This document shows positions 1,505 through 39,262 of a DNA stretch of 64,000 nt, in pieces. The position numbers and the translations under genes are program-made. Under the pieces are notes generated by a model, which did no database searches, was not told the origin of the DNA, and saw only the letters and a list, made by a program, of their open reading frames with translations. Position 1 is the first letter of the stretch. Each line of letters opens with the position of its first letter. Source of the stretch: an uncultured Gammaproteobacteria bacterium (GTDB lineage Bacteria; Patescibacteriota; Microgenomatia; CAZETR01; Amesbacteraceae); assembly GCA_964356705.1 (NCBI GenBank), contig CAYHIN010000001.1:3066-67065 (forward strand), in the 5' to 3' direction.

Positions 1505-1951
1505 TTACTTCATCTCCCTCTCCATATCCCGCTCCACATCAGCCTGCTTGATACTCTCTCTTTTTTCATACTTTTTCTTCCCTCGAGCCAATCCCAGCTC
1601 CAGCTTCACTTTCCCATCTTTTGTATACATAGCCGTAGGCACGAGGAGTAGCCTGGACTGTTTCATTTTTGAAGCCAGTTGCACTATCTCCTTTTGATGC
1701 AAAAGCAGCTTGCGTTCATGCCCCGGGTCATAATTGGTGTTATCCGCGTGTTTATAAGGATAGATGTGGATATTGATACTAAATACCTCCATCGCTCCAA
1801 ATTTGGATGTCCTGATCTTGGCATACGCATTTCCTAGATCCACTCCTCCCGCCTTGGCCGATTTCACCTCAGGTCCTGTCAGGACTATCCCTGCCTCAAC
1901 CCTCTCCGCGATGTCGTAGTTAAATCTAGCTTTTTGATTAATGACCCTCAC
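1505..1951 (-). CDS. smpB: SsrA-binding protein SmpB
   Basis: 148 aa. MRVINQKARFNYDI...GIVLTGPEVKS is a canonical SmpB N-terminus. Confidence 0.9.
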   Translation of the reverse strand: MRVINQKARFNYDIAERVEAGIVLTGPEVKSAKAGGVDLGNAYAKIRTSKFGAMEVFSINIHIYPYKHADNTNYDPGHERKLLLHQKEIVQLASKMKQSRLLLVPTAMYTKDGKVKLELGLARGKKKYEKRESIKQADVERDMEREMK

Positions 1952-3434: not shown

Positions 3435-3457
3435 ACAATTATATTAGCACTCAGCAC

Positions 3458-3706
3458 CTACAACCACAGAATAGCCACAATCAGAACTAGTACTGTGAGC
3501 AAAAAATGCACTCTGGACAAAAGTTTTACCGTCCCATTTATATCCTCCTCGATCGAATCGGTCATAATCGACACCTGCTTGATCACAACCAATGCAAAAA
3601 AACCATACATCACCACTCCCAACACAAAAAATATCTTGACCAAAAGCATCGGTCCAGTTGATACCAAACCTCGGATTGCATCTACTACTGCCGGATCGGT
3701 CATCAT
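3458..3706 (-). CDS. small membrane protein
   Basis: 82 aa with two hydrophobic helices. Tightly packed against its neighbour. Confidence 0.45.
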   Translation of the reverse strand: MMTDPAVVDAIRGLVSTGPMLLVKIFFVLGVVMYGFFALVVIKQVSIMTDSIEEDINGTVKLLSRVHFLLTVLVLIVAILWL

Positions 3707-3707
3707 G

Positions 3708-4391
3708 TTATTCTCCTCTCTCCCTTCTCTTTTCGAGCTCTTCAGATAACTCCGAGATTATTCTGATAGCCCGGTCCGGAAATGGTACCGCCAGCCCTTC
3801 TACCACCTGGTGTTCAGCCGCCGTTTCTACGTGTAGATCTCCAAAATCAAACATATGTCTAAAAAATCCTCCCGTGATCGCCGTTGGCTGCTCAATATGA
3901 TTTAAGTTGGCATACGATACATGCCGGTATAACAAGTTATGAAAATCGATATCTACTATTCGCTCATTAGTGATAACCAGTACCGAGTAATACCACTTCA
4001 AAAATCGCTCTAAGGTAATCCCCATAGTTACCAGGTACCACACCATCTTGCCTACCCACACATATTCAAACGGCACCGGAGCAAAAATCCCCGTCATGCT
4101 TAGTACTTCTGGCAAAACTAGCATCCCAAGGACCATGAGTATCCAAGTCAGGTTCGTAATCGGATGAGCGCGCAATAGCAGCACTATCTCTTCATCTCCT
4201 TGCTGGTTTACAAACTTTTTCCCCGGTCGCACACAATACGCCCCCATACATTCTCTTCCTCCCTTTTCTCCCACCCGCCCGAGCACCTCATCTACTACTG
4301 TCTTATGATGTTTTGCACCAGACTGAGACACAGGAGTAGAAACCACAGGAGGCACTACTTTTCCATCTTGAGCAACATACACCTCCGGCAT
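3708..4391 (-). CDS. membrane protein with bacterial PH (bPH_2/YdbT-like) domain
   Basis: TM helices followed by ...VLVITNERIVDIDFHNL..., which resembles DUF304/bPH. Confidence 0.45.
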   Translation of the reverse strand: MPEVYVAQDGKVVPPVVSTPVSQSGAKHHKTVVDEVLGRVGEKGGRECMGAYCVRPGKKFVNQQGDEEIVLLLRAHPITNLTWILMVLGMLVLPEVLSMTGIFAPVPFEYVWVGKMVWYLVTMGITLERFLKWYYSVLVITNERIVDIDFHNLLYRHVSYANLNHIEQPTAITGGFFRHMFDFGDLHVETAAEHQVVEGLAVPFPDRAIRIISELSEELEKRRERGE

Positions 4392-4537
4392 GACTATATT
4401 TTACACCCTCGTCATTCAAACTAATAAGTCGTGAGCAGATGGAGGTATCCCGTTTTTGCGCCCGCAGCGGTGCCGGCAGCGACCAGGCTGCGAGGACGCA
4501 TAAAAATGGGGTACCGAATCCGCGCAACGACAAAAGT

Positions 4538-6358
4538 TTACTTTTTTTCTATATTAAACAATCCACTCTTCACAGCCAGTGTCCCCGGCGCCCGCAAATT
4601 AAAGGCTTTCTTAAAGTTAACCCCCGATATCACCACTTCTCCTCTATTAGTCTGCAGTATCACCTGATCCGTATACCCGTTACTACTGTGTTTCACCGAC
4701 ACGCCCGAGACAGAAGTCACCCTTCCCCCATGTTTATCCGCCTCTTGTGCCATCCTGTCCTTAGACCACGGATTATCAGATCCTCCGTAGCAGGACCGCA
4801 CATCTTCCGGAAATACTCCGCTCATATCCCCGCCATTAGAAACCACAATCGCCGCATTTATCATGTCCGAAAATTCATCCATTTTGAGCCACGGATGAGA
4901 TCTCCCACACGTCTTTCCCGATCGGTCCTTGTACCAGCCTTTATAAAACCAGGGCGATCCTCCCACCTTTTCCCAAGCCCCCGATGCCCAGTTAGTCCAG
5001 TCAGAAGTGGTATCCCAAAACCCAGGTGTAGTATGTCCAATACTCGTGTAGCTGTCTTGATGTCCTCCCGAAGTCGATGCGTACCAAGTATTTACTATTT
5101 CTCCACTAGTCTTTGAGACCACGATCTCTCCTTCCGTTTGTGACACCGCGTCTCCCCATCTTCCCGGATTTCCAGATTTACTACTACTGTATACCTGGCA
5201 CGCCTCGGTCGTACATATCGATCCATTCGCGTTCTGATTACCTATTCTCCATCCTGTATAAGACAGCGCGTATGACCGGGCCGCAATCGCCTGGGCTTTC
5301 ATCGCCTCAAATCCCCCCTGATCCGCCCACGAGGTCGGCATCTCGGCAATCCCTCTCAGATATTTGCCTTCAAATGCCAGCGTCCCGGCACTAGTTTTGA
5401 TTACACCCGGCATACTCACTTTTCTGATTTCTACGTTTCCATAGTAGGCTTCCAATATTTGTTTGTAGTTTTGTCCCGACTTGGCCCGACCATATGCCCC
5501 GTATTGACTCATGCCTTTATAGTGCGGCGCCCCAAATGAAAACATCGCAAATGCCGGTGAGAATCCCGGATTATAGTCGGGTCTGGCAGCCGGATCATCA
5601 GCCAGTGGCACATCCCCTACCGACGTCGCATAAGTTCCAGTTTTAGAAGCCAGTAGTGACTGTTGCCTGGCGGTAAGTGACGCGATTTTTCCTCCTAGAT
5701 CCGACTGATATTTACTCGCTTTGTCCACTTCCACTTGCAAAAAAGCTGCTTGTTTATCCACTCTCGTCTTCAGCCCGTCCAGATTTGTTTTTTGAGTTTT
5801 GAGACTTGTGGCTTGGGCATTGAGATTTGTTATTTCTCCTCCCACCGACACGATCAGTTCCCGGTCTTGTCTAGCTAGTTTTTCTCGGTAAAACAGGTCC
5901 TTAAAAAATTCCGATGCACTCTTCGCCGAAAATAGCACCATCATCATCGACTGTTCCCTTCTTCTTATATAGTCTTGTTTTAGTTTAGCCGCCATCAGCT
6001 GCTCTTTTACTCCGACCTTCACTTCTCGCTCAAATATGTCTTTAGTCAGTTTATCTAGCCGTGTATCTAGTCCCGTTATTTGGGACTTGAGATTTGTGGT
6101 TTGGGATTTGAGCCCATTCAACTCTTTCACATTTGTTGAGTTGGCTTTGGATATCGCATCCAGTATTCCCGAGTATTTACTAATACACCCCGATATCACA
6201 CTAGAGTCCGACAGCTTGCTCGGATCATCGCACTCCTCCGCCCACACTCCTCCCACGCCCAGCATACAAAAGGCAAGGAAAAACAATACATAATACTTTA
6301 TACGTAATACGTGATACACAAGTCTCGGCATTGACTGTATTTTACATGTTAAACTCAA
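4538..6358 (-). CDS. SpoIID/LytB-domain protein with N-terminal coiled coil
   Basis: Signal/TM, long coiled coil, then the EAMKAQAIAARSYALSYTGW motif typical of SpoIID/LytB amidase enhancers. Contains family B and D repeat insertions. Confidence 0.6.
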   Translation of the reverse strand: MSLTCKIQSMPRLVYHVLRIKYYVLFFLAFCMLGVGGVWAEECDDPSKLSDSSVISGCISKYSGILDAISKANSTNVKELNGLKSQTTNLKSQITGLDTRLDKLTKDIFEREVKVGVKEQLMAAKLKQDYIRRREQSMMMVLFSAKSASEFFKDLFYREKLARQDRELIVSVGGEITNLNAQATSLKTQKTNLDGLKTRVDKQAAFLQVEVDKASKYQSDLGGKIASLTARQQSLLASKTGTYATSVGDVPLADDPAARPDYNPGFSPAFAMFSFGAPHYKGMSQYGAYGRAKSGQNYKQILEAYYGNVEIRKVSMPGVIKTSAGTLAFEGKYLRGIAEMPTSWADQGGFEAMKAQAIAARSYALSYTGWRIGNQNANGSICTTEACQVYSSSKSGNPGRWGDAVSQTEGEIVVSKTSGEIVNTWYASTSGGHQDSYTSIGHTTPGFWDTTSDWTNWASGAWEKVGGSPWFYKGWYKDRSGKTCGRSHPWLKMDEFSDMINAAIVVSNGGDMSGVFPEDVRSCYGGSDNPWSKDRMAQEADKHGGRVTSVSGVSVKHSSNGYTDQVILQTNRGEVVISGVNFKKAFNLRAPGTLAVKSGLFNIEKK

Positions 6359-7359
6359 ATCACATGCGCAGATTTTTTCTCCTTACGACTCTTTTTTTAT
6401 TTTTATCAGTCACCCAAACTCAAGCCCAACAGTTTAAATGCATAAAAACCCCAAATTGTGATCCGTGTACAAACTGGTCAACCGCAGCAAACTGTCTCAA
6501 CACTGCCACAAACACAAATCTTTGTAATACCGGGGTAAATCCTTGTACTGCTTTCTCAGCCAGCTGTCCAGACAACGGCTCCCAGCTGGATCAGTTCCAA
6601 GTCCAAACATGTTCCACTGTTCTTCCTGCTTGTTCTAGTCCAAACCTATGTCTCTCAGAAAGCGCCTGCTCAAATCCAGTCTCTGGATTTAGCTGCGGTG
6701 GAAATCTCATATGCTGTGCTCCACCAGGAGAGCCCACTTCTACTCCAGTTCCAACAACCGCTCCTACTGCTTGTGAGACATTTTCCGGACCGTACAACAA
6801 CCCCTTTGTCTGTATGTCTCCCGGCGGGGCAGTCTCGGGAAGTTACGATTGCAATCCAGGCGGATCATCTCCACTGTTTGACCCAACTGCTCCTCCAAAT
6901 AGTTATGACAATGCCTGCGGATGTGCCGCCGCTACAAAAAGTTCATGTTCTCTCATTTGTTGCCACAGTAACAGCACCGTCGGACCACCTGGCACTACGG
7001 GCGTCCCTCCATACCAACCCTCCTCATTATGCGTCCCTCCTAACGGATCTACTTATACAGGTGTAAAAACTCCCTTTGGCTGTCTTCCTTATACTGGAGC
7101 CGATGGTCCAGCAAAAACGACCGTGGTCGTCCTCTCAAACTGGGCCGTTGCCATTTCCTCCAGCATCGCCATCTTTATCATCCTCTTCGCAGCACTTCAG
7201 ATAGCCACAGGCAGTGGTGACCCCAAGCGCATCAAAGCCGGCCAAGAACTCCTTTTCTCCGGTCTCGCCGGCCTATTTTTGATAAGCCTGGCCATTGTTG
7301 TTCTCAACTTTTTGGGAGTAACCATCTTAGGTCTAGATCTTTTGGGCTTCTTCGTCTGA
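6331..7359 (+). CDS. T4SS pilin-like protein (VirB2/TrbC-type C-terminal domain) with N-terminal Cys-rich Pro/Thr-rich extracellular extension
   Basis: Signal peptide, then about 220 aa with more than 30 Cys. The C-terminal 110 aa are paralogous to the downstream pilin array (TM - SGDPKRIKAGQE - TM). Confidence 0.6.
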   Translation: MTVFYMLNSNHMRRFFLLTTLFLFLSVTQTQAQQFKCIKTPNCDPCTNWSTAANCLNTATNTNLCNTGVNPCTAFSASCPDNGSQLDQFQVQTCSTVLPACSSPNLCLSESACSNPVSGFSCGGNLICCAPPGEPTSTPVPTTAPTACETFSGPYNNPFVCMSPGGAVSGSYDCNPGGSSPLFDPTAPPNSYDNACGCAAATKSSCSLICCHSNSTVGPPGTTGVPPYQPSSLCVPPNGSTYTGVKTPFGCLPYTGADGPAKTTVVVLSNWAVAISSSIAIFIILFAALQIATGSGDPKRIKAGQELLFSGLAGLFLISLAIVVLNFLGVTILGLDLLGFFV

Positions 7360-7378
7360 TCGTGCTACACTTTAACTC

Positions 7379-7723
7379 ATGGCCAGTCCACTGTGTGTTC
7401 CATCAGGTGCAACCGGAAATCTAGGTGTCTCTACTCCTTTTGGCTGTCTACCCTTTGGTGGCAATGCAGGTCCTGCTACCCCGATGATCACTGTTTTAGT
7501 AAATTGGAGCGTGGGTCTAGCCGCAGGCGTAGCTCTCCTCACTCTTATTTATGCCTCTTTTCAGATCGTCACCGCCGCAGGTGACGCCAAGCGCGTCCAA
7601 GCCGGCCGCGAGTTAGTAACTGCCAGCATCGGCGGTCTGATCTTAGTCGTCATGGGTATAGTTATCCTTAATTTTTTAGGTGTCAGCGTCCTAGGATTGG
7701 ACGCTCTAGGCTTTAAGATATAA
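7379..7723 (+). CDS. VirB2/TrbC-like T4SS pilin paralog
   Basis: Two TM helices separated by the loop AAGDAKRVQAGRE. Near-duplicate of the C-terminus of the 6331 ORF. Confidence 0.6.
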   Translation: MASPLCVPSGATGNLGVSTPFGCLPFGGNAGPATPMITVLVNWSVGLAAGVALLTLIYASFQIVTAAGDAKRVQAGRELVTASIGGLILVVMGIVILNFLGVSVLGLDALGFKI

Positions 7724-7733
7724 TTGTAAGCAC

Positions 7734-8036
7734 ATGCGCACACTCGCCCAAATCAGCATTCCCCCTCCAACTGGTCTCAGATTTTCCAATTACAACGATC
7801 TTCCCGCCGATCTCTTTACCCGCATTTTATTATTCGCCATGGCAGCCAGTGGCCTTATATTTTTTGTTCAGCTCATCATGGCCGGTTTCAATCTCCTCAC
7901 TTCTTCCGGTGACCCAGCCAAGATCCAGTCAGCCACCAAAGCTCTCACCAATTCTCTCACCGGGCTTATCATTGTCATTAGTACTTATTTCATCGCCCAG
8001 ATTATCCAAGCCATTTTGGGCCTCCAGATAGTCTAG
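7734..8036 (+). CDS. VirB2/TrbC-like T4SS pilin paralog
   Basis: TM - SSGDPAKIQSATKALT - TM. Confidence 0.6.
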   Translation: MRTLAQISIPPPTGLRFSNYNDLPADLFTRILLFAMAASGLIFFVQLIMAGFNLLTSSGDPAKIQSATKALTNSLTGLIIVISTYFIAQIIQAILGLQIV

Positions 8037-8039
8037 CTT

Positions 8040-8363
8040 ATGGCCAGTACACCTATAAACAGTATTTTTACAAATCATCCCTCAGCAGGTATTGTGGCCG
8101 CCACTCCCGCCTCACTCATCTCATATCTACTCCCAAACATTATGGCCGCGGCTGGCATCATCTTCTTTCTCATGATTCTGGGCGGCGGCTTCATGATGGT
8201 CAAAAACGCCGGTGGCAGCCCAAGTGCCCAAGATACCGCAAAAGCCAGGTCAGCAATTACTATGGGCATCATTGGTTTCTTGCTTGTAGTATCCGCCTAC
8301 TTTATACTTCAGATAGTCCAAGCCCTAACCGGAGTCAACTTTATAATTACTCCCATTTTTTGA
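8040..8363 (+). CDS. VirB2/TrbC-like T4SS pilin paralog
   Basis: TM - AGGSPSAQDTAKARSAIT - TM. Confidence 0.6.
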   Translation: MASTPINSIFTNHPSAGIVAATPASLISYLLPNIMAAAGIIFFLMILGGGFMMVKNAGGSPSAQDTAKARSAITMGIIGFLLVVSAYFILQIVQALTGVNFIITPIF

Positions 8364-19705: not shown

Positions 19706-19927
19706 CTAATTGCTTATAAGTCTTCCATCTTCAAACCAGCTTGCTTCAAAATACTCCTTAAAGTGTTCTTCTTCAGGTCTTTGTTGTGCATTGGCACAGT
19801 AGTCCTCAAATTTCTCGCTGCATGAAACATGCTGTACATGACTACCTATCTGTCGTTTTTTCACAAAACCAGCTCTTTTCAGAATTTTTAACATCTCTTT
19901 CGGTTTCATCGAGGGCAGATTTCCCAT
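19706..19927 (-). CDS. HicA-like mRNA interferase toxin (divergent C-terminus)
   Basis: KPKEMLKILKRAGFVKKRQIGSHVQH matches the HicA/YcfA N-terminal motif. Confidence 0.45.
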   Translation of the reverse strand: MGNLPSMKPKEMLKILKRAGFVKKRQIGSHVQHVSCSEKFEDYCANAQQRPEEEHFKEYFEASWFEDGRLISN

Positions 19928-20196
19928 ACACTACACTGCACTGCAAATCTTGGTCCAGTCACATTTACTGGAACCACAAAACTGTTCTCATCAGGCTCAG
20001 GAATCTCCTCACCATCCTCCTGCAATACTCGCAAGTATCCACCAATCGCATCTCTCGCCATCTCGATGGCCAACTCATAAGTATCACCTTCAGTCACAAG
20101 TCCTGGCAATTTAGGCACAGTCACAGTGAAACCACCCTCCTCACAAGGTTCAAAAACCGCATTATATTTCAGTACTTTTACTACACTTTTACTCAC
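19906..20196 (-). CDS. HicB-like antitoxin
   Basis: YNAVFEPCEEGGFTVTVPKLPGLVTEGDTYELAIEMARDAI matches the HicB/UPF0150 N-domain. Overlaps the HicA-like ORF by 22 nt. Confidence 0.55.
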   Translation of the reverse strand: MSKSVVKVLKYNAVFEPCEEGGFTVTVPKLPGLVTEGDTYELAIEMARDAIGGYLRVLQEDGEEIPEPDENSFVVPVNVTGPRFAVQCSVWEICPR

Positions 20197-20279: not shown

Positions 20280-21338
20280 ATGGAGCAACATGCAGTTCCT
20301 CAAAACATATCGTCGTACGAATTTCGCCTAGTAGGAGACATGACTCTCAAGCAGTTCTTTCAGCTGGCAGGCGGCATTGTTTTAGGGGTCGTCATTTTTC
20401 GCCTCCCCATTCCCGTTTTTATCAAATACCCTCTTGTTTTTATCTCAGTCATCGTGGGTGTTCTCATGGCCTTTGTTCCCATCAACGGTCGCCCTTTCAC
20501 CGCCTGGATCACTGCTTTTTTTAGAGCTATCTATGCTCCCACCGAATTTTTATGGGCTCCGGATACAGAGATTCCAGTTGCCAGCAACATTGCACCCATA
20601 ATTAGCGCCACCTCTCCTTTTCATTCCACCACCACAAATTCAAACACCCCGTCCACGCTTAGCGTGGACAAAGGAACGCTTAGCGTTCCAGCTCCAACTC
20701 AAAAAATTCCCTCTCCTGGATCAGGAGAGGGCAAGGGTGAGGTTTTGAAGGAAATACCCATGACTCCCGTAGTTTCCATGCCGAAACCTACAACCAAAGA
20801 AACTACTTTCAGTTCCTACACGCCACCACCTGCTACGCTTAGCGTAGCAAAAGGGACGCTTAGCGTTCCCAAACCAGTCATTGAACCAAAGTCAGTCATA
20901 GAACCCAAACCAATTTCTCCTATACAAGTTCCCTCTCCTGAATCAGGAGAGGGCCAGGGTGAGGTCGTCGGCCCCGTCACCCAACCTCTAAAAAAACCAG
21001 TCCCAGAGATCAATCTTCCCCAAGTTCCAGCAGCATCCAGCGCGACATCAGAGACCCAAAACGTTCCCACTCCCACTCAACCAAATGTCCTGGCCGGCAT
21101 GGTCACTGACCGTTCTGGAACAGCTATCGAATCTGCCATAGTCGAAATTATCGATAGTGTCACCCAGATTCCAGCCAGAGCCTTACGCACAAATCGCACC
21201 GGTCTCTTTCAGATTGTTACTCCTTTGAAGCCATCTAGTTACCAGGTCATAGTCGAAAAAGAAGGCCTTACATTTCCTCCAGTCAGCATCGTGGCAAATG
21301 GAAAAATTATCCAACCCATAATCATTAAAGCCACATGA
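20280..21338 (+). CDS. VirB3-like membrane protein with C-terminal extension (tandem 70-aa repeats plus CarboxypepD_reg-like beta-sandwich)
   Basis: N-terminal two TM helices as in VirB3/PrgI. Internal duplication TLSVxKGTLSVP...PSPxSGEGxGEV. C-terminal GMVTDRSGTAIESAIVEIID... Confidence 0.5.
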   Translation: MEQHAVPQNISSYEFRLVGDMTLKQFFQLAGGIVLGVVIFRLPIPVFIKYPLVFISVIVGVLMAFVPINGRPFTAWITAFFRAIYAPTEFLWAPDTEIPVASNIAPIISATSPFHSTTTNSNTPSTLSVDKGTLSVPAPTQKIPSPGSGEGKGEVLKEIPMTPVVSMPKPTTKETTFSSYTPPPATLSVAKGTLSVPKPVIEPKSVIEPKPISPIQVPSPESGEGQGEVVGPVTQPLKKPVPEINLPQVPAASSATSETQNVPTPTQPNVLAGMVTDRSGTAIESAIVEIIDSVTQIPARALRTNRTGLFQIVTPLKPSSYQVIVEKEGLTFPPVSIVANGKIIQPIIIKAT

Positions 21339-22003
21339 AACCCTCTACACAATCCCATTTAGATATCTACGACATCCAAAACGATCTACTGATCCTCAAG
21401 GACGGCTCAGTGTGTCTCCTCTTGGAGGTCTCCGCTATCAACTTCGGCCTCTTCTCCGAAAGAGAGCAAGAAGCCACCATTTATGCATATGCTCAGTTGC
21501 TCAATTCTCTCAATTTTACGATCCAAATAGTCATCACCAGCAAAAGAAAAGATATTACTGATTATCTAGACAAGCTCGAGGTCAGGCTATCATCTGCCCC
21601 TTCCCCAAAGATCAAAGACCAGCTTCTCAAATATCGCGATTTTATAAAGTCCATCGTCCGCCAGGGTAATGTCTTGGACAAGAAATTTTTCATTTCCATC
21701 CCCTTCTCGTCTCTGGAATTAGGTGTCAGCTCAGCTCTCAGTGCTTTTTCAAAAAAACCCACCAAGCCCCTCTCTCCTATCCCCACGATAGTCGAAAGAG
21801 CCACAAACAATCTCACTCCCAAACGAGATCATTTGATCAGATTGTTAGCCCGGATCGGCCTCAAATCTCGCCAGCTCGGAACCCTTGAGCTTCTCCAATT
21901 GTTCTATGACTCCTACAACGCCACAGATTTGGGTACCAAGGTGACACTTCCCATACAAGCAGGTGTCATCCTGAGCGAGCGTACACCTAAACCAACATCA
22001 TGA
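21335..22003 (+). CDS. probable N-terminal fragment of VirB4-family ATPase
   Basis: DIQNDLLILKDGSVCLLLEVSAINFGLFSEREQEATIYAYAQLLNSLNFTIQIV resembles the N-terminal region of Gram-positive VirB4 homologs. ATGA overlap with the following ATPase ORF. Confidence 0.45.
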   Translation: MKPSTQSHLDIYDIQNDLLILKDGSVCLLLEVSAINFGLFSEREQEATIYAYAQLLNSLNFTIQIVITSKRKDITDYLDKLEVRLSSAPSPKIKDQLLKYRDFIKSIVRQGNVLDKKFFISIPFSSLELGVSSALSAFSKKPTKPLSPIPTIVERATNNLTPKRDHLIRLLARIGLKSRQLGTLELLQLFYDSYNATDLGTKVTLPIQAGVILSERTPKPTS

Positions 22004-23880
22004 AATTCCCAACTCTCAAAATCCCAAACATAAAGAAAAGTCATCTACCCTCTCCTGGCGAAGGAGAGGGACCGAGGGTGAGGTTAACAGAGCCAGTCTC
22101 AAAAAAATCCCTCACCACCGCCAAAACTGTCCGCGACATCATCGCCCCTTCCTCTATCTCCATCGATTTCAACTATCTCAGACTTGGCGATCTCTACTAC
22201 CGCACCTACTTCACAAATATCAATCGCCGCTTTGTCGATGCCAACTGGCTCTCAGCTCTCATCAATTTCGACCATTCGCTCAACATCTCTATGTTTATTT
22301 ATCCCGTCGAAAGCAAAAGCACTCTCGATGATCTCAGAAGAAAAATCGCCGAAATGGAAGCCGAGATCAGTACCGATATGCAAAGAGGCCGTGTCGTCGA
22401 TCCCTCGACCCAAGCTAAGCTCGAGGACGCCCTTTCTCTCCAAGACCAGCTGGTCAAAGGCATTGAACGTTTCTTTCAGTTTTCCCTCTATGTTACGATT
22501 CCTGCCGAATCCTCATCAGAGTTGGACAATGTCGCAAAACAGGTCACGAGCACTCTTTCCTCACTCCAGCTCACAGCCACTCCCGCCCTTCTGGAGCAAG
22601 CCGAGGGTTTCAAGACCACTCTCCCCACTTGCGTCGACCATTTGGGCGTTCTCCGCAACATGGATACTACATCCCTTGCTACTACTTTTCCTTTTACCTC
22701 ATCTGAGCTTTCCAGCAACGATGGTGTGCTATATGGTCTCAATGAGCACAACGGCAGTCTCGTTCTCTTTGATCGCTTTAGTCTAGAAAATGCCAATACG
22801 GTAGTCTTTGCCAAGGCTGGGGCTGGAAAAAGCTTCCTGGTCAAGCTCGAGATTCTAAGGTCGACCATGTTCGGCACCGAGATTATCATTATTGATCCCG
22901 AAAACGAATACAAAACTCTTTGTGAGGCCGTGGGTGGTGAATACATTAACTTCTCTTTCAATTCCCAAAACCGCATCAATCCTTTTGACTTGTCGCTTCT
23001 GACCCAATATTCCGACGAAAACGAGCTCAATCTCAAGATTCAGTCTCTCCACTCCCTCTTCAAAGTCATCATGGGCAACCTCAATCCTACCGAAGACGCC
23101 CTTCTCGACCGTGCTCTTACCCAGACGTACAAAATGAAGGGTATTACTCCGGACCCTGAGACTCAAAAAAAGACTCCTCCTCTTATGGAGGATCTCTACA
23201 AAGCCTTTGTGGGCATGGAAGACCCCGAAGCCAAGTCTCTGGCCGACCGCATCGAAAAGTTTGTCAAGGGTTCTTTTGCCGGCATCATCGACCAGCCTAG
23301 TAATATCACTCTCAAAAATCCCTTTACCGTCTTCTCTGTCCGTGATCTGGAGGATTCTCTCAAGCCTATCGCCATTTTTATTATTCTCGACTTCATCTGG
23401 ACCAAGATGAGACGCGACCTCAAAAAGCGCATTCTCGTCGTAGACGAGGCTTGGTATCTCATGCGCTATCCCGATTCCGCCGCCTTCTTATATGGTATTG
23501 CCAAGCGCGCCCGCAAGTATTTCCTCGGCTTGACCACTATTACCCAAGACGTCGAAGATTTTCTGGCTTCTGATTATGGCAAACCCATTGTCACCAACTC
23601 TTCTATTCAGATTCTCATGAAGCAGTCTCCTGCGGCAATTGACAAAGTCGCCCAACTCTTTTACTTGTCAGAGGGAGAAAAGCATCTCCTACTCTCAGCC
23701 AACGTCGGAGAAGGTCTGTTCTTTGCGGGCAACAATCACGTCGCCATCCGATTTGTAGCCAGTCCTGACGAATATCAGTTGATTACCACCAAGCCAGGCG
23801 ATATTCTAGCCAAACAGAAGACCGATGCTGAAAACGCAGTTCGTCTAGTTACTCAAGAAGAACCCACCCAAAATGCCTGA
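22000..23880 (+). CDS. virB4: VirB4/TrbE/ConE-family T4SS ATPase (C-terminal two-thirds)
   Basis: Walker A VVFAKAGAGKSFLVK and Walker B ILVVDEAWYLM. 626 aa; together with the upstream fragment about 848 aa, a typical VirB4 size. Confidence 0.8.
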   Translation: MKFPTLKIPNIKKSHLPSPGEGEGPRVRLTEPVSKKSLTTAKTVRDIIAPSSISIDFNYLRLGDLYYRTYFTNINRRFVDANWLSALINFDHSLNISMFIYPVESKSTLDDLRRKIAEMEAEISTDMQRGRVVDPSTQAKLEDALSLQDQLVKGIERFFQFSLYVTIPAESSSELDNVAKQVTSTLSSLQLTATPALLEQAEGFKTTLPTCVDHLGVLRNMDTTSLATTFPFTSSELSSNDGVLYGLNEHNGSLVLFDRFSLENANTVVFAKAGAGKSFLVKLEILRSTMFGTEIIIIDPENEYKTLCEAVGGEYINFSFNSQNRINPFDLSLLTQYSDENELNLKIQSLHSLFKVIMGNLNPTEDALLDRALTQTYKMKGITPDPETQKKTPPLMEDLYKAFVGMEDPEAKSLADRIEKFVKGSFAGIIDQPSNITLKNPFTVFSVRDLEDSLKPIAIFIILDFIWTKMRRDLKKRILVVDEAWYLMRYPDSAAFLYGIAKRARKYFLGLTTITQDVEDFLASDYGKPIVTNSSIQILMKQSPAAIDKVAQLFYLSEGEKHLLLSANVGEGLFFAGNNHVAIRFVASPDEYQLITTKPGDILAKQKTDAENAVRLVTQEEPTQNA

Positions 23881-26800
23881 TTCCCCTCTCACTCAACTTG
23901 ATATCCAAAATCTAGAGTCAGCCATGCGCCTAGTCATCGAGGGCTATCAAAAAATCCGTTCAGAAAACCAAAGAGACATCTCCGAGTTTGACTTCTTTAG
24001 ATCAGAAATCCAACCTGTGTGGGATTGGGTCGGTCGGTATCTAACTCCATTTCAAATTCAAAAAATTCTGGGCGAAGCCTCTATTTCCTCCGAACACACC
24101 AAGGATGCCGAGAAAGAACGTGTTTTGGAAATCTGTGCAAATCTGCGAGCCAAGATTTTTAAAGAAATAAACAACTCCGATCTAGCTACCGTCCAAGAGC
24201 TTACTCAACAATGGGAAGAAGCAGAAAAAAATCTTTCCGCCCAACCCGACCCCGCCACTCAGTTTGTCACTCGCATCAAAAAAAGGTCTGCCATCTATGC
24301 CGCCAGGGCTTCTGTCGCCTCACTTCCTGAAAAAGAGATTCCGTCCACCCCGCCCCAGATTGATCCACGCATGGACGAAGTTATTGCTACCGCCTTCAAA
24401 GATATTCCTATACCAGACCAGGTCTCATTTCACAGAAAACTAGCTGATCTGGTCCAAAAAGCCAGCACCGCCTCTCCGGATGAATATCAAAGAATTACCC
24501 AGGAACTAGTCACTCACGTCGAAAAATCCACCGGCAGACCTCTCCCCCCGTCTCTACGAAAAGAGGTTCTTTCCTACATCCCACCCCTCGCCCGTCTTTC
24601 AGATTCAAAGATCACCCACGACCTTCAGTCGCTAGACACTCTAGAAGAAAAAGCTTTATATCTCCAAAACCACACGTCAGCCCATCTGACCCAAACCGAA
24701 GCCGTTGAGACAGCTCGTCAATATACCCAGCACGACACGGCTACCGTATCTCAAATAGTAGACACCATCCGGGATTTTTCCCACAACCAGGAGCTTACTT
24801 CCGCTCAGTCTACAAAACTAATTAATGAGATCTTGCCAGAGACTCTCCAAACCCACTCCAAAGAAACAGCGTCCAAACTGCTAACCCAAGTAAGATCTGT
24901 CCTCCCAAACCAAACTTCAGACCAAATCTCTAGCCTTACACAGGATCTCATCTTTTCCAAAGAATTCGCTTCTTCTGTCACTACCACATCTAAAGATGCC
25001 CCCAAGGAAACCTTCCTCGGCTCACTTCGCACTCTTATCCATCCCCATACCCTCCTTACCGATGCATCATCCATATCAGCCCAGTCGGGTGTTTCTTCAG
25101 AACTAATCACAAATCTTTTGATACAAACCCAATCTCAGGTTCTTACGCAAATTGCTACTCCAGAGTATGCCCAAAAATATATTGCTTACCTAGGCATTAC
25201 AGATTTTGATCCAGAAAGGACTCGCCAGATTGCAGATAGCGTACTCGAGGTCTTCACCAACCCAACTCTCTCTACCGCCACACCCCACATCACCACCTTT
25301 CTCACCACTCCCCCCAAACAAACACCCAAATATATCCAAAAAACGACTCTTGATTCAGTCGCCGAGGATTTTTCCAAAATTATTTCGGCAACCTTCCCCC
25401 AAAACTCTCCCGAGACCAAAATACTCACTGGTCTCATCCATCCTATTGCCAAAGGTCTGTCCATCTCACCAGAGTCAGCCCGAGACACACTTATTTCCAC
25501 AGTCAGATTAACCAACTATCTTTCCCCCTCAGCAAATACCAACCAGACTCTGGAAAAACTAGCTCCCATCATCGGTACTCTCCGCACAGTTCATCCAAAT
25601 ATCAAGCTCCTCACTTCATCTACCTCCTCAATTCTCCAAAGTCACACTACCCTCTCTAGTGCACAGCTCATTTCAGTGACAAATCAGTTTACTCTTAGGT
25701 ATCTTCTAAATCCCACCACAGATCCTCAGATATTTGCCAGCTATTTTGACAAAAGTATCCTTCCCCAGCTAGAAGCCCTCACTGGTCGTTCTATTTCACC
25801 TGAGAAGAGTCGCCAGATCTTTTCAGATCTTCACACTCATCTCCAGACCAATCCTCTTAGATTCACGGCAGACCAACAAGTCTTATCCTCACTCACCGCC
25901 CACTTCACCAAAGCCGGCCTCACCCCCGAGCAAGCCCGGGTTCTCGCTCCCAAACTACTCGATTCCGCCAAATTGAGTTTTTACTTCAGCGGATATACCC
26001 CTATAGGTAAAAATCTCGTTCACACCAAAGCCCTCCAGGCCCAATCTTTTAATAATATCTTCAAAGTCTCCTTAGAGAGTTTAATAGAAGCCAATCCAGC
26101 CCTCGCCAATCTCCGTTTTGGATATCTAAACTCCCGCAGAGTTTTTGAAGATCTCCACACTGTTTTAGGCAACCCTACTGCCTTAAGTCCCGAGTTTCTT
26201 ATCAAAATCCAGTCCCCAGTTATTTATTCTTTCACCAAATATTTAGAGGGCTACATTCCAGAACCCATCCGCCCAGTAGTGGCAGCTGCCGCCAAAACTC
26301 TACTTGGTAGTGCTTTTCTCACCTCAAAGTTTGCCGAACAGTCAGGATTAAGAAGTTTTGTTGCCGTCCTGGCCGCAGGTTCTACTAAACTTCGTCCCTT
26401 GGGTGTAGCCAGTGCCCTCAAGTTTTCCGGCAAAGGCGCCCTCCAATACAATCTCAGGTTTCTAAACAAATACACTGGCATGAAAGTAGCTGGGAATCCC
26501 GTAGCTCTGGCCTTCAGGAAAAATTTCCAAGCCCCAGTTTCAGCAGCCGTCAAGGGAGTTTGGACCAAATTTGCAGGTACAGCAGCCGGCAAAGCCATAA
26601 CTGCGGCAGGAGCAAAAATAGCTGCCAATGCCGCCCTTCAGCCCATTCTCCAGGCTATTGGCAGCGCCGCTCCCATCATTGGAAACCTCATTGCCCTTGC
26701 CGTCGGCTGGGTAGTAGGTGAGGTGCTCGTCAAGCTTATCGACCCGGCGATTCGATTTCTCAAAGAGCTAAAAGACAATATCATTCCCGGCGCCACGGCC

Positions 26801-35651: not shown

Positions 35652-36069
35652 CGACTCAATTTCAATATTTACCGATGGCGGCTCTCGTGGCAATCCAGGT
35701 CCAGCAGCCAGCGCCTTTATCATCTACGACTCATCAAACACTACTCTTCATCAACATGGTTTTTACCTAGGGATAGCGACAAACAACCAAGCCGAATACC
35801 AAGCCGTCATAGAGGCACTGAAGTATATACGTGATACTTTATACGAAATACATAATACAAACTTCTATCTCGATTCCGAGCTCGTCGTCAAGCAGCTCAG
35901 AGGCGAATACAAGATCAAAGATCCAAATCTTCAAACCAAATCTCAAGAGATCAAAAATATCATTTTCCTTCTTCCTTCTAATTCAGTTCGTTTTACTCAC
36001 GTACCTCGTGAACAAAATTCCGCCGCCGACGCACTTGTAAACAAAACCCTCGATAGCTTGTCATCCTGA
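35644..36069 (+). CDS. rnhA: ribonuclease HI
   Basis: IFTDGGSRGNPGPAA...NNQAEYQAVIEAL...SAADALV. The stop codon lies inside a family E repeat. Confidence 0.85.
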   Translation: MTNDSISIFTDGGSRGNPGPAASAFIIYDSSNTTLHQHGFYLGIATNNQAEYQAVIEALKYIRDTLYEIHNTNFYLDSELVVKQLRGEYKIKDPNLQTKSQEIKNIIFLLPSNSVRFTHVPREQNSAADALVNKTLDSLSS

Positions 36070-36289
36070 CACTGAGCGAAGTCGAAGTGGAAGGACCCAG
36101 TCCTCATTAAGAAAAAGACATCAAATTCCCCGCGTTTCTTAGCCAGCGGTAGTTTCACGTTTTATGTACTGACATAAATAGAATTGATGCAGGCATAAAT
36201 CATCGACAGTTACAAAGCTAAGAAATTCGTAATGACACAATATATGTAGATCTTCTACATTTACCGCTACTTGGTATACAATCAATAGG

Positions 36290-38524
36290 ATGCCCAAATT
36301 GTTTCTAATTCCCGAAATTGAGTCCCAAAATATTCAAGTTTTTCTCAATATCGAGCACCATCCTTTAGCCATCGAAATCACAAACCAGCTCTCAAATCTC
36401 AAGCATGTTCAGCTCATAAAAAAATCATCAGACGCCGACGTCACTATTTATCTTGTAGGTTTTGATTCCCCTTCTCTTTCCGAGACCTTGTCCCACACCT
36501 CAGATCTCTATGAACATCTCAAGCAGGTCAAGTCAGATCATCACAAGTTCATTTTGGTGGTAAAAAACCCCGCGTCTCATTTGTCTCGAACGGCAATTAC
36601 TCTTACCAATCAGTTTGCTCACAACTATGACCTAAATCATGAGGTGTTCGAGTATGATCACACCGTCTCCACATCTCAATTGGCCGAGACCATTATTCGC
36701 AAATTTATATATGGACATTCGACCCCTCACCAAGAACCTCGGTCAAGCTCAATAAAGACACCTACTGCAAAAGCCATTCCCCTCGTTTCCAAGCCTCAAT
36801 ACATGATACTTAATACGTTATACCTAATACTCGCTCTTGCCACTCCTTGGCTACTTTCGATTCTATTGTTAGTCTTTATGTATCCACTCACCTCATGTCT
36901 TCACAGATACTCTGTATGTACTAGCGTGACCGACGTTAGTCTTTCAGCCTTTCGATATACTTCCCGACTTAGCCCTGGTTCTTCCGAGCTCGCCACTCAG
37001 ATCGGCCTTCCGCTGTCGCAGTACAAAGATCTCATCATTACTTTAAAAAAACTAGATCGTCTGACCACCAAATCGGCCAAGAGATCCTCCGCGTTTCTAG
37101 CCAGCCTCTTCACAACGAGACCTGCTCCTCAGACAGCAGAAATCACAGCTTCTCTAGAAGAGACCGACCATTTGCTAAATCAGGTTCAAGCCGACCTTAG
37201 GTCAATATATCTTGCCACACCCAATCACATAAGATCCTTCGAGAGTCTAGCCGTAGGCGCAGGGGAATCTCGCCACACTCTCAGTCTTCTTATCCCAAAC
37301 ATTACAAGTACATTGAGAAATTTCACCAGTGGCAAAAAAACTTATCTAGTGGCTTTGCAAGACAACTGGGAGCTCAGAGGCAGCGGGGGACTGATAGAAG
37401 CTTTTCTCAAAGTCGATATCTCACATGGCCAGATCGATCAGTTTCAGCCTTTTTCAACTCGCGATACAGATAAGCTTCTCACAGGCACTGTCACCACCCC
37501 AGCCGATTTTCAGGATCTGACCGACCAGACTCAATGGTACCTGCGCGACGCCTCATGGGATCCCAATATCTCATCCACGCTGACCAAGATTGCTTGGTTT
37601 GCCCAAAAAGAGCTCAACCAACCCTTCGATGGAGTCATCCTAGTGGATCTAAACACTCTCAAAGAGTTGGTCAGGATAATTGGCTCCGTCCAGGTGGGGG
37701 AGTCTAAAGTTCCAGTCACCGCCCAAAACTTTTCCGCGATATATCAGTCCCAACTAAATTCATCCGATGATTACAACAAATATCTCACCACTCTTCTGAG
37801 TGCCATCTTTGCCCAATTTAGTAATATGGACGATCTTAAATATCAAAAAGTAATTCAGCTTTTTTATACCCAAGTAGTCACTGGCCAGGTCTTCATCACC
37901 GGTCTCGCAGAAGGGGAGAAGGGGCTTCCGGAGTGTCGCAGTTTTCTGATATGTTCCGTAGACTATGCCTACCCCGTATCATCAAACATCACCGGTTCCA
38001 AGACCAATCTTTATCTGACCAGATCTCATACCGCCTCTGTTAGTCTTTCAGATTCCCAAAACACTTCTCTTCACACTTTTTCATATCGTTATTCACCTGA
38101 GGCAAATTCTTGGGTAGGCCAAAACCACCAAGAATACCTGCGGCTATATTTACCAGACGACGTGCTCTCGGACTATCAAGTTTCCATTGACGGAGTAGCC
38201 ATTCCAAAAGACTCGATACATATCGGAGTCTCCCAAGGGTCAAAATATTTAGGAGTCAGTTTCACAGTAAATAAGTTGCAAGATGTCAAAGTCCAATTTA
38301 GCTATCACACTCCCATGCCCAAGGCCAGCCAGTTCCACTATCAGCTCGACATTCCCAGCCAGCCCGGCGTAGTAGGGGACCAGGTAAAAGTAGAATTAAA
38401 CTATCCTCCTACTTGGGCCGCCTTAGTAGACAAAGTCGCCTCAGTTGCTGATGCTGGCCGTCTCGAGTATAATTACGCCCATCCCGAGAAGTTCCAGCTC
38501 AATATTGATTTCACAAAACCTTAA
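36290..38524 (+). CDS. large hypothetical protein with internal TM (possibly DUF4012-like)
   Basis: 744 aa with a TM around aa 185-205. Contains a family D repeat insertion. Confidence 0.5.
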   Translation: MPKLFLIPEIESQNIQVFLNIEHHPLAIEITNQLSNLKHVQLIKKSSDADVTIYLVGFDSPSLSETLSHTSDLYEHLKQVKSDHHKFILVVKNPASHLSRTAITLTNQFAHNYDLNHEVFEYDHTVSTSQLAETIIRKFIYGHSTPHQEPRSSSIKTPTAKAIPLVSKPQYMILNTLYLILALATPWLLSILLLVFMYPLTSCLHRYSVCTSVTDVSLSAFRYTSRLSPGSSELATQIGLPLSQYKDLIITLKKLDRLTTKSAKRSSAFLASLFTTRPAPQTAEITASLEETDHLLNQVQADLRSIYLATPNHIRSFESLAVGAGESRHTLSLLIPNITSTLRNFTSGKKTYLVALQDNWELRGSGGLIEAFLKVDISHGQIDQFQPFSTRDTDKLLTGTVTTPADFQDLTDQTQWYLRDASWDPNISSTLTKIAWFAQKELNQPFDGVILVDLNTLKELVRIIGSVQVGESKVPVTAQNFSAIYQSQLNSSDDYNKYLTTLLSAIFAQFSNMDDLKYQKVIQLFYTQVVTGQVFITGLAEGEKGLPECRSFLICSVDYAYPVSSNITGSKTNLYLTRSHTASVSLSDSQNTSLHTFSYRYSPEANSWVGQNHQEYLRLYLPDDVLSDYQVSIDGVAIPKDSIHIGVSQGSKYLGVSFTVNKLQDVKVQFSYHTPMPKASQFHYQLDIPSQPGVVGDQVKVELNYPPTWAALVDKVASVADAGRLEYNYAHPEKFQLNIDFTKP

Positions 38525-39223: not shown

Positions 39224-39262
39224 CCACTTCTTGTCATCCTGAGGCGCACCGAAGGATCCAGT

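What the first reader, a model, noticed from the sequence alone, without database searches (positions are those of the whole stretch)
21335..23880. VirB4 ATPase split into two ORFs exactly where two different repeat elements are inserted
The 222-aa upstream ORF resembles the N-terminal region of Gram-positive VirB4 proteins and ends 35 nt after a partial family E element (GVILSE). The ATPase ORF starts with an ATGA overlap in a different frame and carries a family A element 48 nt downstream. The combined size (about 848 aa) equals a normal VirB4. The gene may be genuinely bipartite, a pseudogene caused by element insertion, or may require frameshifting.
Basis: partly seen in the sequence, partly recalled or inferred. 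Interest (0 to 1): 0.65.

Follow-up and report, generated by a model that had tools for sequence, protein, structure and literature searches.

The report
Naturally two-gene VirB4, repeats are passengers
The "broken" VirB4 secretion ATPase is the normal, conserved two-gene arrangement (a TrsD-like N-domain gene plus the VirB4 ATPase gene) already described for Patescibacteria, and the two repeat elements are later in-frame insertions into the floppy tails beside the gene boundary, not its cause.

Summary
The sequence features are real. ORF1 (21335-22003, 222 aa) and ORF2 (22000-23880, 626 aa) overlap by ATGA. A truncated family E repeat lies in ORF1's last 14 codons, and a family A hairpin lies 48 nt into ORF2.

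ORF1 is a VirB4 N-domain homologue (TrsD/TraC-like), and ORF2 is a bona fide VirB4. Together they are colinear with full-length VirB4 models.

The split is not damage:
- The 120 best ORF1 homologues are all standalone proteins of 132-268 aa.
- 22 of 27 resolved Amesbacteria/Microgenomates loci are split, 14 of them with the same ATGA overlap.
- The two closest relatives (85-94% identity) have the identical junction and neither element.
- dN/dS is 0.05 for ORF1 and 0.03 for ORF2.
- There is no slippery site, and ORF2's frame is closed 4 codons upstream of its ATG.

TrsD next to virB4 is already published as a widespread component of the Patescibacteria T4SS (PMC12102498).

Two smaller points may be new. 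About 20% of close relatives carry a re-fused single ORF, from at least two independent fusions. Family A hairpins also recur in the disordered linkers of the PrgI-like and VirB4 genes in unrelated lineages, and all eight intragenic T4SS copies are read in one frame.

Verdict: ordinary and already known, low interest.

The parts
20280..21338 (+). PrgI/VirB3-like membrane protein gene (352 aa). It is the first gene of the coupled block, and its stop overlaps the ORF1 start (ATGA at 21335-21338).
   Evidence: Pfam PF12666 PrgI, E 2.2e-7, 31.7 bits against a cutoff of 27. The same gene precedes the TrsD-like gene in L002, L036 and Bacillota megaplasmids. Junction sequence.
20704..20743 (+). Family A hairpin element, copy 1. 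It is in frame inside the PrgI-like linker and is read as IPSPGSGEGKGEV.
   Evidence: 10-bp stem, -19 kcal/mol. Absent from L002.
20926..20965 (+). Family A hairpin element, copy 2. It is in frame inside the PrgI-like linker and is read as VPSPESGEGQGEV.
   Evidence: Absent from L002.
21335..22003 (+). TrsD/TraC-like gene (222 aa), a free-standing homologue of the first ~200 residues of VirB4.
21947..22000 (+). Hypervariable C-terminal tail of ORF1 (aa 205-222), not alignable among homologues.
   Evidence: Alignment A1. In other Patescibacteria the tails reach about 500 aa of low-complexity sequence.
21962..21981 (+). Truncated family E element (5' half only), read as GVILSE. It lies inside a ~24-nt insertion relative to L002 and L035.
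22000..22003 (+). ATGA start/stop overlap, a translational-coupling junction.
   Evidence: The same overlap is present in 14 of 22 split relatives, plus L002, L035 and L036.
22000..23880 (+). VirB4 ATPase gene (626 aa), comprising the second half of the N-domain plus the P-loop C-domain. Walker A GAGKS is at 22819-22833 and Walker B VVDEAW at 23437-23454.
   Evidence: NCBIfam NF045971 CD1110-family VirB4, 391.5 bits against a cutoff of 325, profile positions 182-752 of 752. PDB 4ag5 VirB4 C-domain, E 4e-58. Pfam P-loop_TraG. Motif coordinates. An identical protein is in NCBI as an intact CDS (P0270). dN/dS 0.03.
22048..22085 (+). Family A hairpin element, copy 3. It is in frame in the VirB4 N-terminal tail and is read as (L)PSPGEGEGPRVR(L). 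It lies between the conserved MKFPTLK start motif and the conserved KSLTTAKTVRDIIAP motif.
   Evidence: Absent from L002 and L035. Tail variability shown.
23873..27712 (+). Downstream 1279-aa membrane protein gene of the same block. Its start overlaps the VirB4 stop by 8 nt (ATGCCTGA). It has a weak M23-peptidase-like C-terminus.
   Evidence: (PF01551, E 0.084, below threshold). A large protein follows VirB4 in L002 and L035, and an M23 endopeptidase does so in Pontibacillus.

Best explanation
The region is the core of a monoderm-type (MPF-FATA-like) type IV secretion operon of a Patescibacteria (Amesbacteria-like) genome. Four genes are translationally coupled through overlapping stop and start codons: a PrgI/VirB3-like gene, a TrsD-like gene, VirB4, and a large membrane protein gene.

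In this lineage the first ~200 residues of VirB4 are encoded as a separate, conserved protein (TrsD/TraC-like, ORF1). The rest of VirB4 (the second half of the N-domain plus the ATPase domain) is ORF2.

Inferred mechanism: the ATGA overlap makes ribosomes that terminate ORF1 re-initiate on ORF2, which would give near-equimolar amounts of the two chains. The chains then assemble non-covalently into a functional VirB4. The ORF1 chain supplies the membrane-proximal part that contacts VirB3 and VirB8 in solved VirB4 structures.

The two polypeptide ends at the split are intrinsically disordered and hypervariable. That is why short genomic repeats have been tolerated there in frame: a family E fragment, whose family normally sits at gene 3' ends, and a family A hairpin. 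The repeats are recent, lineage-specific passengers. They did not create the split.

Shown: homology, colinearity, conservation of the split, absence of the elements in the nearest relatives, and purifying selection. Inferred: translational coupling, two-chain assembly, and disorder-based tolerance of the insertions.
For: 1. ORF1 and ORF2 hit the same full-length VirB4 models colinearly and without overlap. Against NF045975 they cover positions 115-276 and 289-892 of 894. Against NF045971 they cover 26-85 and 182-752 of 752. A naturally fused relative (P0276, 815 aa) matches NF045975 in one stretch, 108-892.

3. The split is conserved.
- The best 120 ORF1 homologues are all standalone proteins of 132-268 aa.
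- 148 of the top 150 50%-identity clusters carry no ATPase sequence.
- 96 of the 120 best ORF2 homologues have split length, most 570-670 aa.
- 22 of 27 resolved genome loci are split, 14 with an ATGA overlap.

4. The closest relatives, L002 (85% and 96% aa identity) and L035 (94% on ORF2), have the same CCATGAAATTCCCAAC junction and lack both elements.

5. dN/dS against L002 is 0.05 for ORF1, 0.03 for ORF2 and 0.10 for the PrgI-like gene.

6. The N-terminal motif M[KN][LF]P..[FL]KK of the ATPase chain is conserved among split relatives, so ATG 22000 is the real start.

7. All four genes overlap: ATGA, ATGA and ATGCCTGA.

8. Published work describes TrsD as a remote homologue of the VirB4 N-terminal portion. 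It found 2,272 homologues in Patescibacteria, 1,664 of them next to virB4, and the gene is essential in Ca. S. epibionticum (PMC12102498).

9. The same order, PrgI, TrsD-like, then a 620-640 aa VirB4, occurs on Bacillota megaplasmids.

10. Family E copies elsewhere in the window sit at gene 3' ends, and two ORFs stop on the element's own TGA. This fits ORF1 already being a gene end when the fragment arrived.
Against: - No expression or protein data exist, so coupling and two-chain assembly are inferred.
- The AlphaFold model of a fused relative was too poor (pLDDT 56) to show the interface.
- ORF1 scores far below NCBIfam's curated TrsD cutoff (25 against 200 bits).
- About 20% of close relatives are fused, so a single-chain product is also viable and the functional advantage of the split is unknown.
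- Raw reads could not be inspected.
Confidence: 0.9

Rival explanations
1. Pseudogene: an ancestral full-length virB4 was broken by insertion of the E and/or A element, and the two ORFs are decaying remnants.
For: Two repeat elements flank the break within about 90 nt. Fused full-length versions exist in some relatives.
Against: - The identical split and ATGA junction exist without either element in L002 and L035.
- The split is the majority and, on the NJ tree, the ancestral state.
- dN/dS is 0.03-0.05.
- Both elements are in frame and introduce no stop codon.
- Walker A and B motifs are intact.
- NCBI lists an identical 626-aa protein, named ATP-binding protein, as a normal protein entry.
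Confidence: 0.02
2. Programmed -1 ribosomal frameshifting, or transcriptional slippage, joins ORF1 and ORF2 into one 848-aa VirB4. The nearby hairpin would act as the stimulator.
For: ORF2 is in the -1 frame relative to ORF1. A stable hairpin (-24 kcal/mol) lies downstream. Fused proteins function in relatives.
Against: - ORF2's frame is closed by TAA at 21988-21990, so the shift would have to occur within about 10 nt (ACCAACATCA), which holds no X XXY YYZ heptamer or homopolymer run.
- Junction sequences of relatives share only the ATGA and no slippery motif.
- The hairpin starts 48 nt after the overlap, too far for a stimulator, and it is absent in the nearest relatives.
- The conserved Met-Lys-Leu/Phe-Pro start peptide argues for independent initiation.
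Confidence: 0.03
3. Sequencing or assembly error: a single-base indel in a MAG contig artificially splits one gene.
For: The source is a metagenome-assembled genome. One base would restore a single frame.
Against: - The same split with the same overlap appears in independent assemblies and samples (L001/L004, L002, L003, L035, and 14 genome loci).
- Hundreds of standalone homologues exist.
- An in-frame ATG with a conserved N-terminal peptide follows.
Confidence: 0.02
4. The repeat elements are not neutral passengers. Family A hairpins would be recruited to the T4SS operon to act at the RNA level (tuning coupling, stoichiometry or mRNA stability) or as a peptide module (PSPxxGEGxGEV) in linkers. 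This is compatible with the two-gene explanation above and adds to it.
For: - 3 of the 4 family A copies in 64 kb lie in the 3.6-kb PrgI-TrsD-VirB4 block.
- The unrelated lineage L022/L036 has copies in the same genes, two in PrgI and one in the VirB4 N-tail.
- All 8 intragenic T4SS copies use the same strand and frame.
- The stems keep pairing through compensatory changes (TG/CA, TA/TA, CA/TG).
Against: - The nearest relatives function without them.
- Only 3 of 96 VirB4 N-tails carry one.
- A copy in L036 PrgI is decaying in place.
- One frame of the forward strand is closed by TGA, and the used frame gives Pro/Ser/Gly/Glu, so a tolerance filter explains the frame bias.
- A fourth copy sits, inverted, in an unrelated ComF-like gene.
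- The loci examined were chosen because they contain the T4SS, so the enrichment is partly ascertainment.
Confidence: 0.1

Closest known systems
TrsD + VirB4 of the Patescibacteria T4SS (Quiñonero-Coronel et al., Microb Genom 2025, PMC12102498)
   Same: A standalone TrsD-like gene lies immediately upstream of virB4, with PrgI/VirB3 nearby. The host is Patescibacteria. TrsD is described there as a remote homologue of the VirB4 N-terminal portion. This locus is one more example.
   Different: Nothing essential differs. The passages I searched (the terms 'split', 'fused', 'N-terminal' and 'TrsD') do not mention re-fused single-ORF variants within Amesbacteria or repeat insertions in the tails. 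I did not read the whole paper or its supplements.
TrsD/TrsE (pGO1/pSK41) and TraD/TraE (pIP501) of Gram-positive conjugative plasmids; NCBIfam NF041427 TrsD/TraD family
   Same: A small protein of about 200 aa is encoded just before a VirB4 of about 620-670 aa that lacks the first part of the N-domain. ORF1 hits NF041427 over profile positions 24-138 (E 1.4e-5).
   Different: The score is only 25 bits against a curated cutoff of 200, so ORF1 is not a member by NCBI's rule. The hosts are Bacillota plasmids with a relaxase and coupling protein, whereas this copy is chromosomal in a Patescibacteria genome.
Full-length monoderm VirB4 (CD1110 family NF045971; Mbov_0397 family NF045975) and TrwK/VirB4 of R388 (PDB 7o41-7o43, 8rtb)
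   Same: ORF1 plus ORF2 together cover these models colinearly. The ATPase domain is 4ag5-like. The ORF1 fold is closest to TrwK.
   Different: Those proteins are single polypeptides. Here the chain is cut about 200 residues in, inside the N-domain rather than at the N-domain/ATPase boundary.
Rickettsia palindromic elements (RPEs; Ogata et al. 2000, from my own knowledge) and other MITE-like repeats inserted in frame in bacterial genes
   Same: These are short palindromic repeats present in several copies per genome. They are inserted in frame into protein-coding genes without disrupting them, and they are absent from orthologues in related genomes.
   Different: The family A and E elements are shorter (about 30-40 nt against about 100-150 nt) and unrelated in sequence. 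No mobility mechanism or target-site duplication was identified here.

Membership tests
VirB4 family T4SS ATPase (ORF2) | Scores above the curated cutoff of a VirB4 family model. | tested here: met
   NF045971 CD1110-family VirB4: 391.5 bits against a cutoff of 325, E 7e-117. PDB 4ag5 VirB4 C-domain, E 4e-58.
VirB4 family T4SS ATPase (ORF2) | Intact Walker A and Walker B motifs of the P-loop domain. | tested here: met
   GAGKS at aa 274-278 and VVDEAW at aa 480-485. Pfam P-loop_TraG, E 4.6e-32.
VirB4 family T4SS ATPase (ORF2) | Complete N-terminal domain on the same polypeptide. | tested here: not met
   ORF2 starts at profile position 182 of 752 (NF045971) and 289 of 894 (NF045975). The missing part is encoded by ORF1.
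VirB4 family T4SS ATPase (ORF2) | Encoded next to a VirB3/PrgI-type gene in a T4SS cluster. | tested here: met
   The PrgI-like gene at 20280-21338 is above the Pfam cutoff. The gene order is conserved in relatives and in Bacillota plasmids.
TrsD/TraD (TraC-like, PF26593) standalone VirB4 N-domain proteins (ORF1) | Sequence match to the family model at its curated threshold. | tested here: inconclusive
   NF041427 gives 25 bits against a cutoff of 200, which is not met. The local Pfam copy lacks PF26593, so ORF1 and P0002 return no hits. The precomputed annotation does give PF26593 TraC-like for all 120 homologues, including the 85-87% identical P0001 and P0002.
TrsD/TraD (TraC-like, PF26593) standalone VirB4 N-domain proteins (ORF1) | Homology to the N-terminal part of full-length VirB4. 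| tested here: met
   NF045975 positions 115-276, E 4.6e-7. Colinear with fused relatives. TrwK is the top structural hit.
TrsD/TraD (TraC-like, PF26593) standalone VirB4 N-domain proteins (ORF1) | Free-standing gene of about 200 aa directly upstream of virB4. | tested here: met
Programmed -1 frameshift gene | Slippery heptamer in the overlap window, conserved among relatives, with a stimulatory structure 5-9 nt downstream. | tested here: not met
   The overlap window is 10 nt and contains no slippery site. The relatives' junctions share only the ATGA. The hairpin is 48 nt away and is not conserved.
Pseudogene created by element insertion | Relaxed selection, and an intact orthologue in element-free relatives. 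| tested here: not met
   dN/dS is 0.03-0.05. Element-free relatives carry the same split.
RPE-like in-frame palindromic repeat (family A element) | Multi-copy palindromic sequence inserted in frame in coding genes and absent from orthologues. | tested here: met
   The window holds 4 copies, all inside ORFs and in frame. Stems are 9-10 bp. The elements are absent in L002 and L035.
RPE-like in-frame palindromic repeat (family A element) | Evidence of mobility (target-site duplication, transposase in trans, or polymorphic presence within a population). | not tested
   The linkers are too divergent to define clean insertion boundaries, and no population data were available.

The most novel reading that the evidence does not exclude
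Family A hairpin elements are not random passengers. They would be repeatedly and directionally captured, always on the same strand and in the same PSPxxGEGxGEV reading frame, in the disordered linkers of the PrgI-like and VirB4 genes of the Patescibacteria T4SS operon in unrelated lineages. There they would act as RNA hairpins that tune translational coupling or stoichiometry, or as a modular linker peptide. Alongside this, the TrsD/VirB4 boundary would be an evolutionary hinge that has re-fused at least twice within Amesbacteria.
Probability: 0.1. Interest if true: 0.5.

Novelty: already known. Interest (0 to 1): 0.2.

Why it matters
The main value is annotation hygiene. In Patescibacteria and some Bacillota, a ~220-aa gene followed by a ~620-aa VirB4 with an ATGA overlap should be annotated as TrsD-like plus VirB4, not as a frameshifted pseudogene. 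Repeat-derived peptides in the tails (GVILSE, PSPGEGEG) should not be read as damage.

The T4SS is reported to be essential for the epibiotic lifestyle of a cultivated Patescibacterium (PMC12102498). Natural fused and split variants within one genus-level group could therefore help in designing constructs to study how the VirB4 N-domain docks to VirB3/PrgI.

The recurrence of in-frame hairpin repeats in T4SS linkers is a small, possibly undescribed curiosity.

Tried and rejected
- Exact or 3-mismatch searches with the full 30-nt A element and 23-nt E element found only the query copies. The families are too degenerate, so shorter core patterns were needed.
- The local Pfam scan gave nothing for ORF1 or for P0002 even at E 10. 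The local copy evidently lacks PF26593, so I relied on NCBIfam and the precomputed annotation.
- The PDB sequence search with ORF1 found nothing.
- An exact-sequence look-up of the 100%-identical P0270 found no contig, so a second assembly of this exact genome could not be compared.
- The AlphaFold model of the fused relative P0276 was low-confidence (pLDDT 56, pTM 0.43). I did not use it for fold search or interface inference. It shows only that the linker (residues about 196-233) has no predicted secondary structure, with pLDDT below 50 for residues 210-225.
- The afdb50 fold library was unavailable.
- Rfam at the gathering threshold found no family for either element, only tmRNA and one tRNA.
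- A literature search for TrsD + TrsE + VirB4 found nothing. A search for in-frame palindromic elements in CPR found no relevant paper.
- I considered GTG 22078, inside the A element and preceded by GGAGAGG as a possible Shine-Dalgarno sequence, as an alternative ORF2 start. I rejected it because the MK[LF]P..[FL]KK peptide encoded from ATG 22000 is conserved in relatives.
- I considered the family A 'element' as a conserved peptide motif rather than a DNA or RNA element. I rejected it because the stems keep pairing through compensatory changes and one copy lies inverted in an unrelated gene.


Full report
**What is in the sequence**

ORF1 (21335-22003, 222 aa) and ORF2 (22000-23880, 626 aa) exist as described, in different frames, and share the tetranucleotide ATGA at 22000-22003.

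A truncated family E repeat, GGTGTCATCCTGAGCGAGCG, lies at 21962-21981 and encodes GVILSE (ORF1 aa 210-215). Its core, GTCATCCTGAG, occurs 8 times in the window against 1.15 expected. This copy lacks the 3' half (CGAAGGATCC) that the full copies have.

A family A element, CCCTCTCCTGGCGAAGGAGAGGGACCGAGGGTGAGGTT, lies at 22048-22085, starting 48 nt into ORF2. It encodes PSPGEGEGPRVR and folds into a 9-bp GC-rich hairpin of -24 kcal/mol.

**What the two ORFs are**

ORF2 is a bona fide VirB4:
- It scores 391.5 bits against NCBIfam NF045971 (VirB4-like conjugal transfer ATPase, CD1110 family; cutoff 325). It aligns only to profile positions 182-752 of 752.
- It matches the crystallised VirB4 C-domain 4ag5 at E 4e-58.
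- It has intact Walker A (GAGKS) and Walker B (VVDEAW) motifs.

ORF1 gives weaker but consistent hits to the part of those models that ORF2 lacks:
- NF045975 (Mbov_0397-family VirB4), positions 115-276 of 894, E 4.6e-7. ORF2 covers positions 289-892 of the same model.
- NF045971, positions 26-85.
- The TrsD/TraD family NF041427, E 1.4e-5.

A naturally fused relative (P0276, 815 aa) matches NF045975 in a single stretch, 108-892. Fused relatives also align colinearly with ORF1 plus ORF2.

The cut lies about 200 residues into VirB4, inside its N-domain.

**Is the split damage?**

No. Five lines of evidence agree.

- Standalone ORF1 homologues. A search of 5.8 billion proteins with ORF1 found 751 homologues. 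The best 120 are all standalone proteins of 132-268 aa, mostly from Candidatus Amesbacteria and other Microgenomates, and they carry the precomputed Pfam family PF26593 'TraC-like'.
- Profile search. Against 1.84 billion cluster representatives it found 2,680 hits. Only 2 of the top 150 contain any ORF2-like sequence. The others are the N-domain followed by a low-complexity tail of up to about 500 aa.
- ORF2 homologues. Of the 120 best, 96 have the split length and 24 are fused (738-842 aa).
- Genome loci. Of 29 loci from the genome collection, 22 are split, 5 are fused and 2 are unresolved. Fourteen of the split loci use the same ATGA overlap, and the rest use TAATG or gaps of a few bases.
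- Nearest relatives. L002 (ORF1 85% and ORF2 96% aa identity) and L035 (ORF2 94%) come from independent samples. They have the same two genes and the same ...CCATGAAATTCCCAAC... junction, and they lack both elements.

Selection is strongly purifying. dN/dS against L002 is 0.05 for ORF1 and 0.03 for ORF2, although dS is high. An identical 626-aa protein is listed in NCBI, named 'ATP-binding protein', as a normal protein entry (P0270).

**Frameshifting and alternative starts**

ORF2's frame is closed by TAA at 21988-21990, four codons before its ATG. A -1 shift would have to happen within ACCAACATCA, which has no slippery heptamer. The relatives' junctions share nothing except the ATGA.

The peptide encoded directly after ATG 22000, MKFPTLK, belongs to a conserved M[KN][LF]P..[FL]KK motif in split relatives. 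Independent initiation at 22000 is therefore real. The GTG inside the A element is not the start.

All four consecutive genes overlap: PrgI-like/ORF1 by ATGA, ORF1/ORF2 by ATGA, and ORF2/1279-aa gene by ATGCCTGA. The ORF1/ORF2 junction is simply one of the operon's ordinary coupled gene boundaries.

**What is already known**

Quiñonero-Coronel et al. (Microb Genom 2025, PMC12102498) report the following:
- It was the most abundant T4SS component they retrieved in Patescibacteria, with 2,272 homologues, 1,664 of them associated with virB4.
- The copy in Ca. Southlakia epibionticum is listed as essential.

The same order also occurs on Bacillota megaplasmids (Pontibacillus, and C. perfringens pJFP838A). 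There a PrgI-type or small gene is followed by a TrsD-like hypothetical protein and then a 621-641-aa VirB4, with an M23 endopeptidase next in Pontibacillus. The bipartite VirB4 is thus an established arrangement, and this locus is another instance.

**Why the elements sit there**

The region around the split is a hypervariable, apparently disordered linker. ORF1 homologues cannot be aligned after the conserved ...G(T)KV.LP. VirB4 N-tails differ in length (0-65 aa) and sequence in nearly every relative.

Family E copies elsewhere in the window sit at gene 3' ends. ORFs 33968-34447 and 35644-36069 terminate on the TGA inside the element, and another copy lies between convergent genes at 39230. 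A fragment at the 3' end of ORF1 therefore fits ORF1 already being a gene end.

Relative to L002 and L035, the window has about 24 extra nucleotides carrying the E fragment. It also has the A element where those relatives have a different short repeat, ATCTCACTACTCACGACTCACAACC.

The most economical reading is tolerance. In-frame short repeats survive where the protein is unconstrained.

**Residual points of interest**

- Fused variants. The fused forms are one clade (L014, L020, L021, L023) plus a singleton (L013), both nested among split forms, and the outgroups are split. This suggests at least two secondary fusions (NJ tree without support values). The clade members have lost the whole linker.
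- Distribution of family A hairpins. Three of the four copies in the window lie in the PrgI-TrsD-VirB4 block.
- Recurrence in another lineage. The unrelated lineage L022/L036 has copies in the same genes, with an extra inner hairpin. L025 has one copy in its PrgI-like gene.
- Frame and stem conservation. All eight intragenic T4SS copies are read on the same strand and in the same frame (PSPxxGEG...GEV). The stems keep pairing through compensatory changes.

Several facts argue against a function:
- The nearest relatives lack the elements.
- Only 3 of 96 N-tails carry one.
- One L036 copy is decaying in place.
- One forward frame is closed by TGA.
- A fourth window copy is inverted, in frame, in an unrelated ComF-like gene.
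- The loci were sampled because they contain the T4SS.

I rate a functional role at about 0.1.

**Verdict**

The arrangement is already known, and interest is low (0.2).

Noticed in passing
L025:1803-5063 (Ca. Amesbacteria JACRNA010000017.1); also L010 ORF2 4651-8262: The VirB4 of this relative is 1086 aa. It carries an insert directly after Walker A, AKAGAGKS|GAGWEK...FVHN|SYMVKLE, that looks like an intein with a homing-endonuclease-sized body. The 1203-aa VirB4 in L010 may be similar. L025's VirB4 5' part also appears frameshifted (ORFs 1484-1873 and 1803-5063 overlap).
   Followed up: no
window 19706-20196 (- strand): A HicA-like ORF (73 aa, 19706-19927) and a HicB-like ORF (96 aa, 19906-20196) form a toxin-antitoxin pair directly upstream of the PrgI-like gene. 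I judged this from the translations only.
   Followed up: no
window 393-427: A fourth family A hairpin (CCCCTCTCCAGAATTGTGGAGAGGGGCTGGGGTGAGGT) lies inside the minus-strand ComF/phosphoribosyltransferase-like ORF 273-989. It is in frame but in the opposite orientation, read as VTSPQPLSTILERGQ just before the NVLLVDDVWTTG motif.
   Followed up: partly
window 34437-34465, 35056-35084 (-), 36057-36081, 39230-39264, 42673-42700, 42994-43028, 52250-52284: Full family E elements (TGTCATCCTGAG-N-CGAAGGATCCAG) cluster at gene 3' ends. Two ORFs (33968-34447 and 35644-36069) stop on the TGA inside the element. Two copies (39233-39264 and 42997-43028) are 100% identical over 32 nt.
   Followed up: partly
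window 6285-6320, 28164-28207, 29504-29539, 33092-33149, 35826-35861, 36790-36833 (family D2); also families D3, D6, D8, D12: There are several families of short repeats with a 7-nt period, for example AATACAT AATACTT AATACAA GATAC, TTGGGAT TTGGGAT, TTTAGGA TTTCGGA and ATCTCAC TACCCAC CACACAC. I did not check their positions against the ORFs. A D12-like stretch occupies the VirB4 N-tail in L002 and L035 where the window has family A.
   Followed up: no
window 20656-20691 and 20836-20870: The PrgI-like linker contains another small palindrome, GGAACGCTTAGCGTTCC, twice (read as KGTLSVP). A recognisable copy sits at the corresponding position in L002, so it is older than the family A insertions.
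   Followed up: partly
L036:1318-2322 compared with L022:316-1242: Where L022's PrgI-like protein has an intact family A copy (PSPGSGEGTPRSGGGEV), L036 has SPPKLGGETPLQRGGVV, and the hairpin pattern search found no copy inside the L036 gene. This suggests the elements erode in place while staying in frame. The comparison is at peptide level only, and the positions were judged by eye.
   Followed up: partly
L013, L014, L020, L021, L023; P0276, P0121 and 22 other proteins: About 20% of close Amesbacteria relatives encode TrsD and VirB4 as one ORF (787-842 aa). In the L014/L020/L021/L023 clade the whole variable linker has been deleted. The L014 reading frame runs for 1584 aa and was not resolved.
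   Followed up: partly
window 1049-1458 (-) and 60470-60540 (-): A tmRNA gene (Rfam RF00023, 89.9 bits) and one tRNA gene.
   Followed up: no
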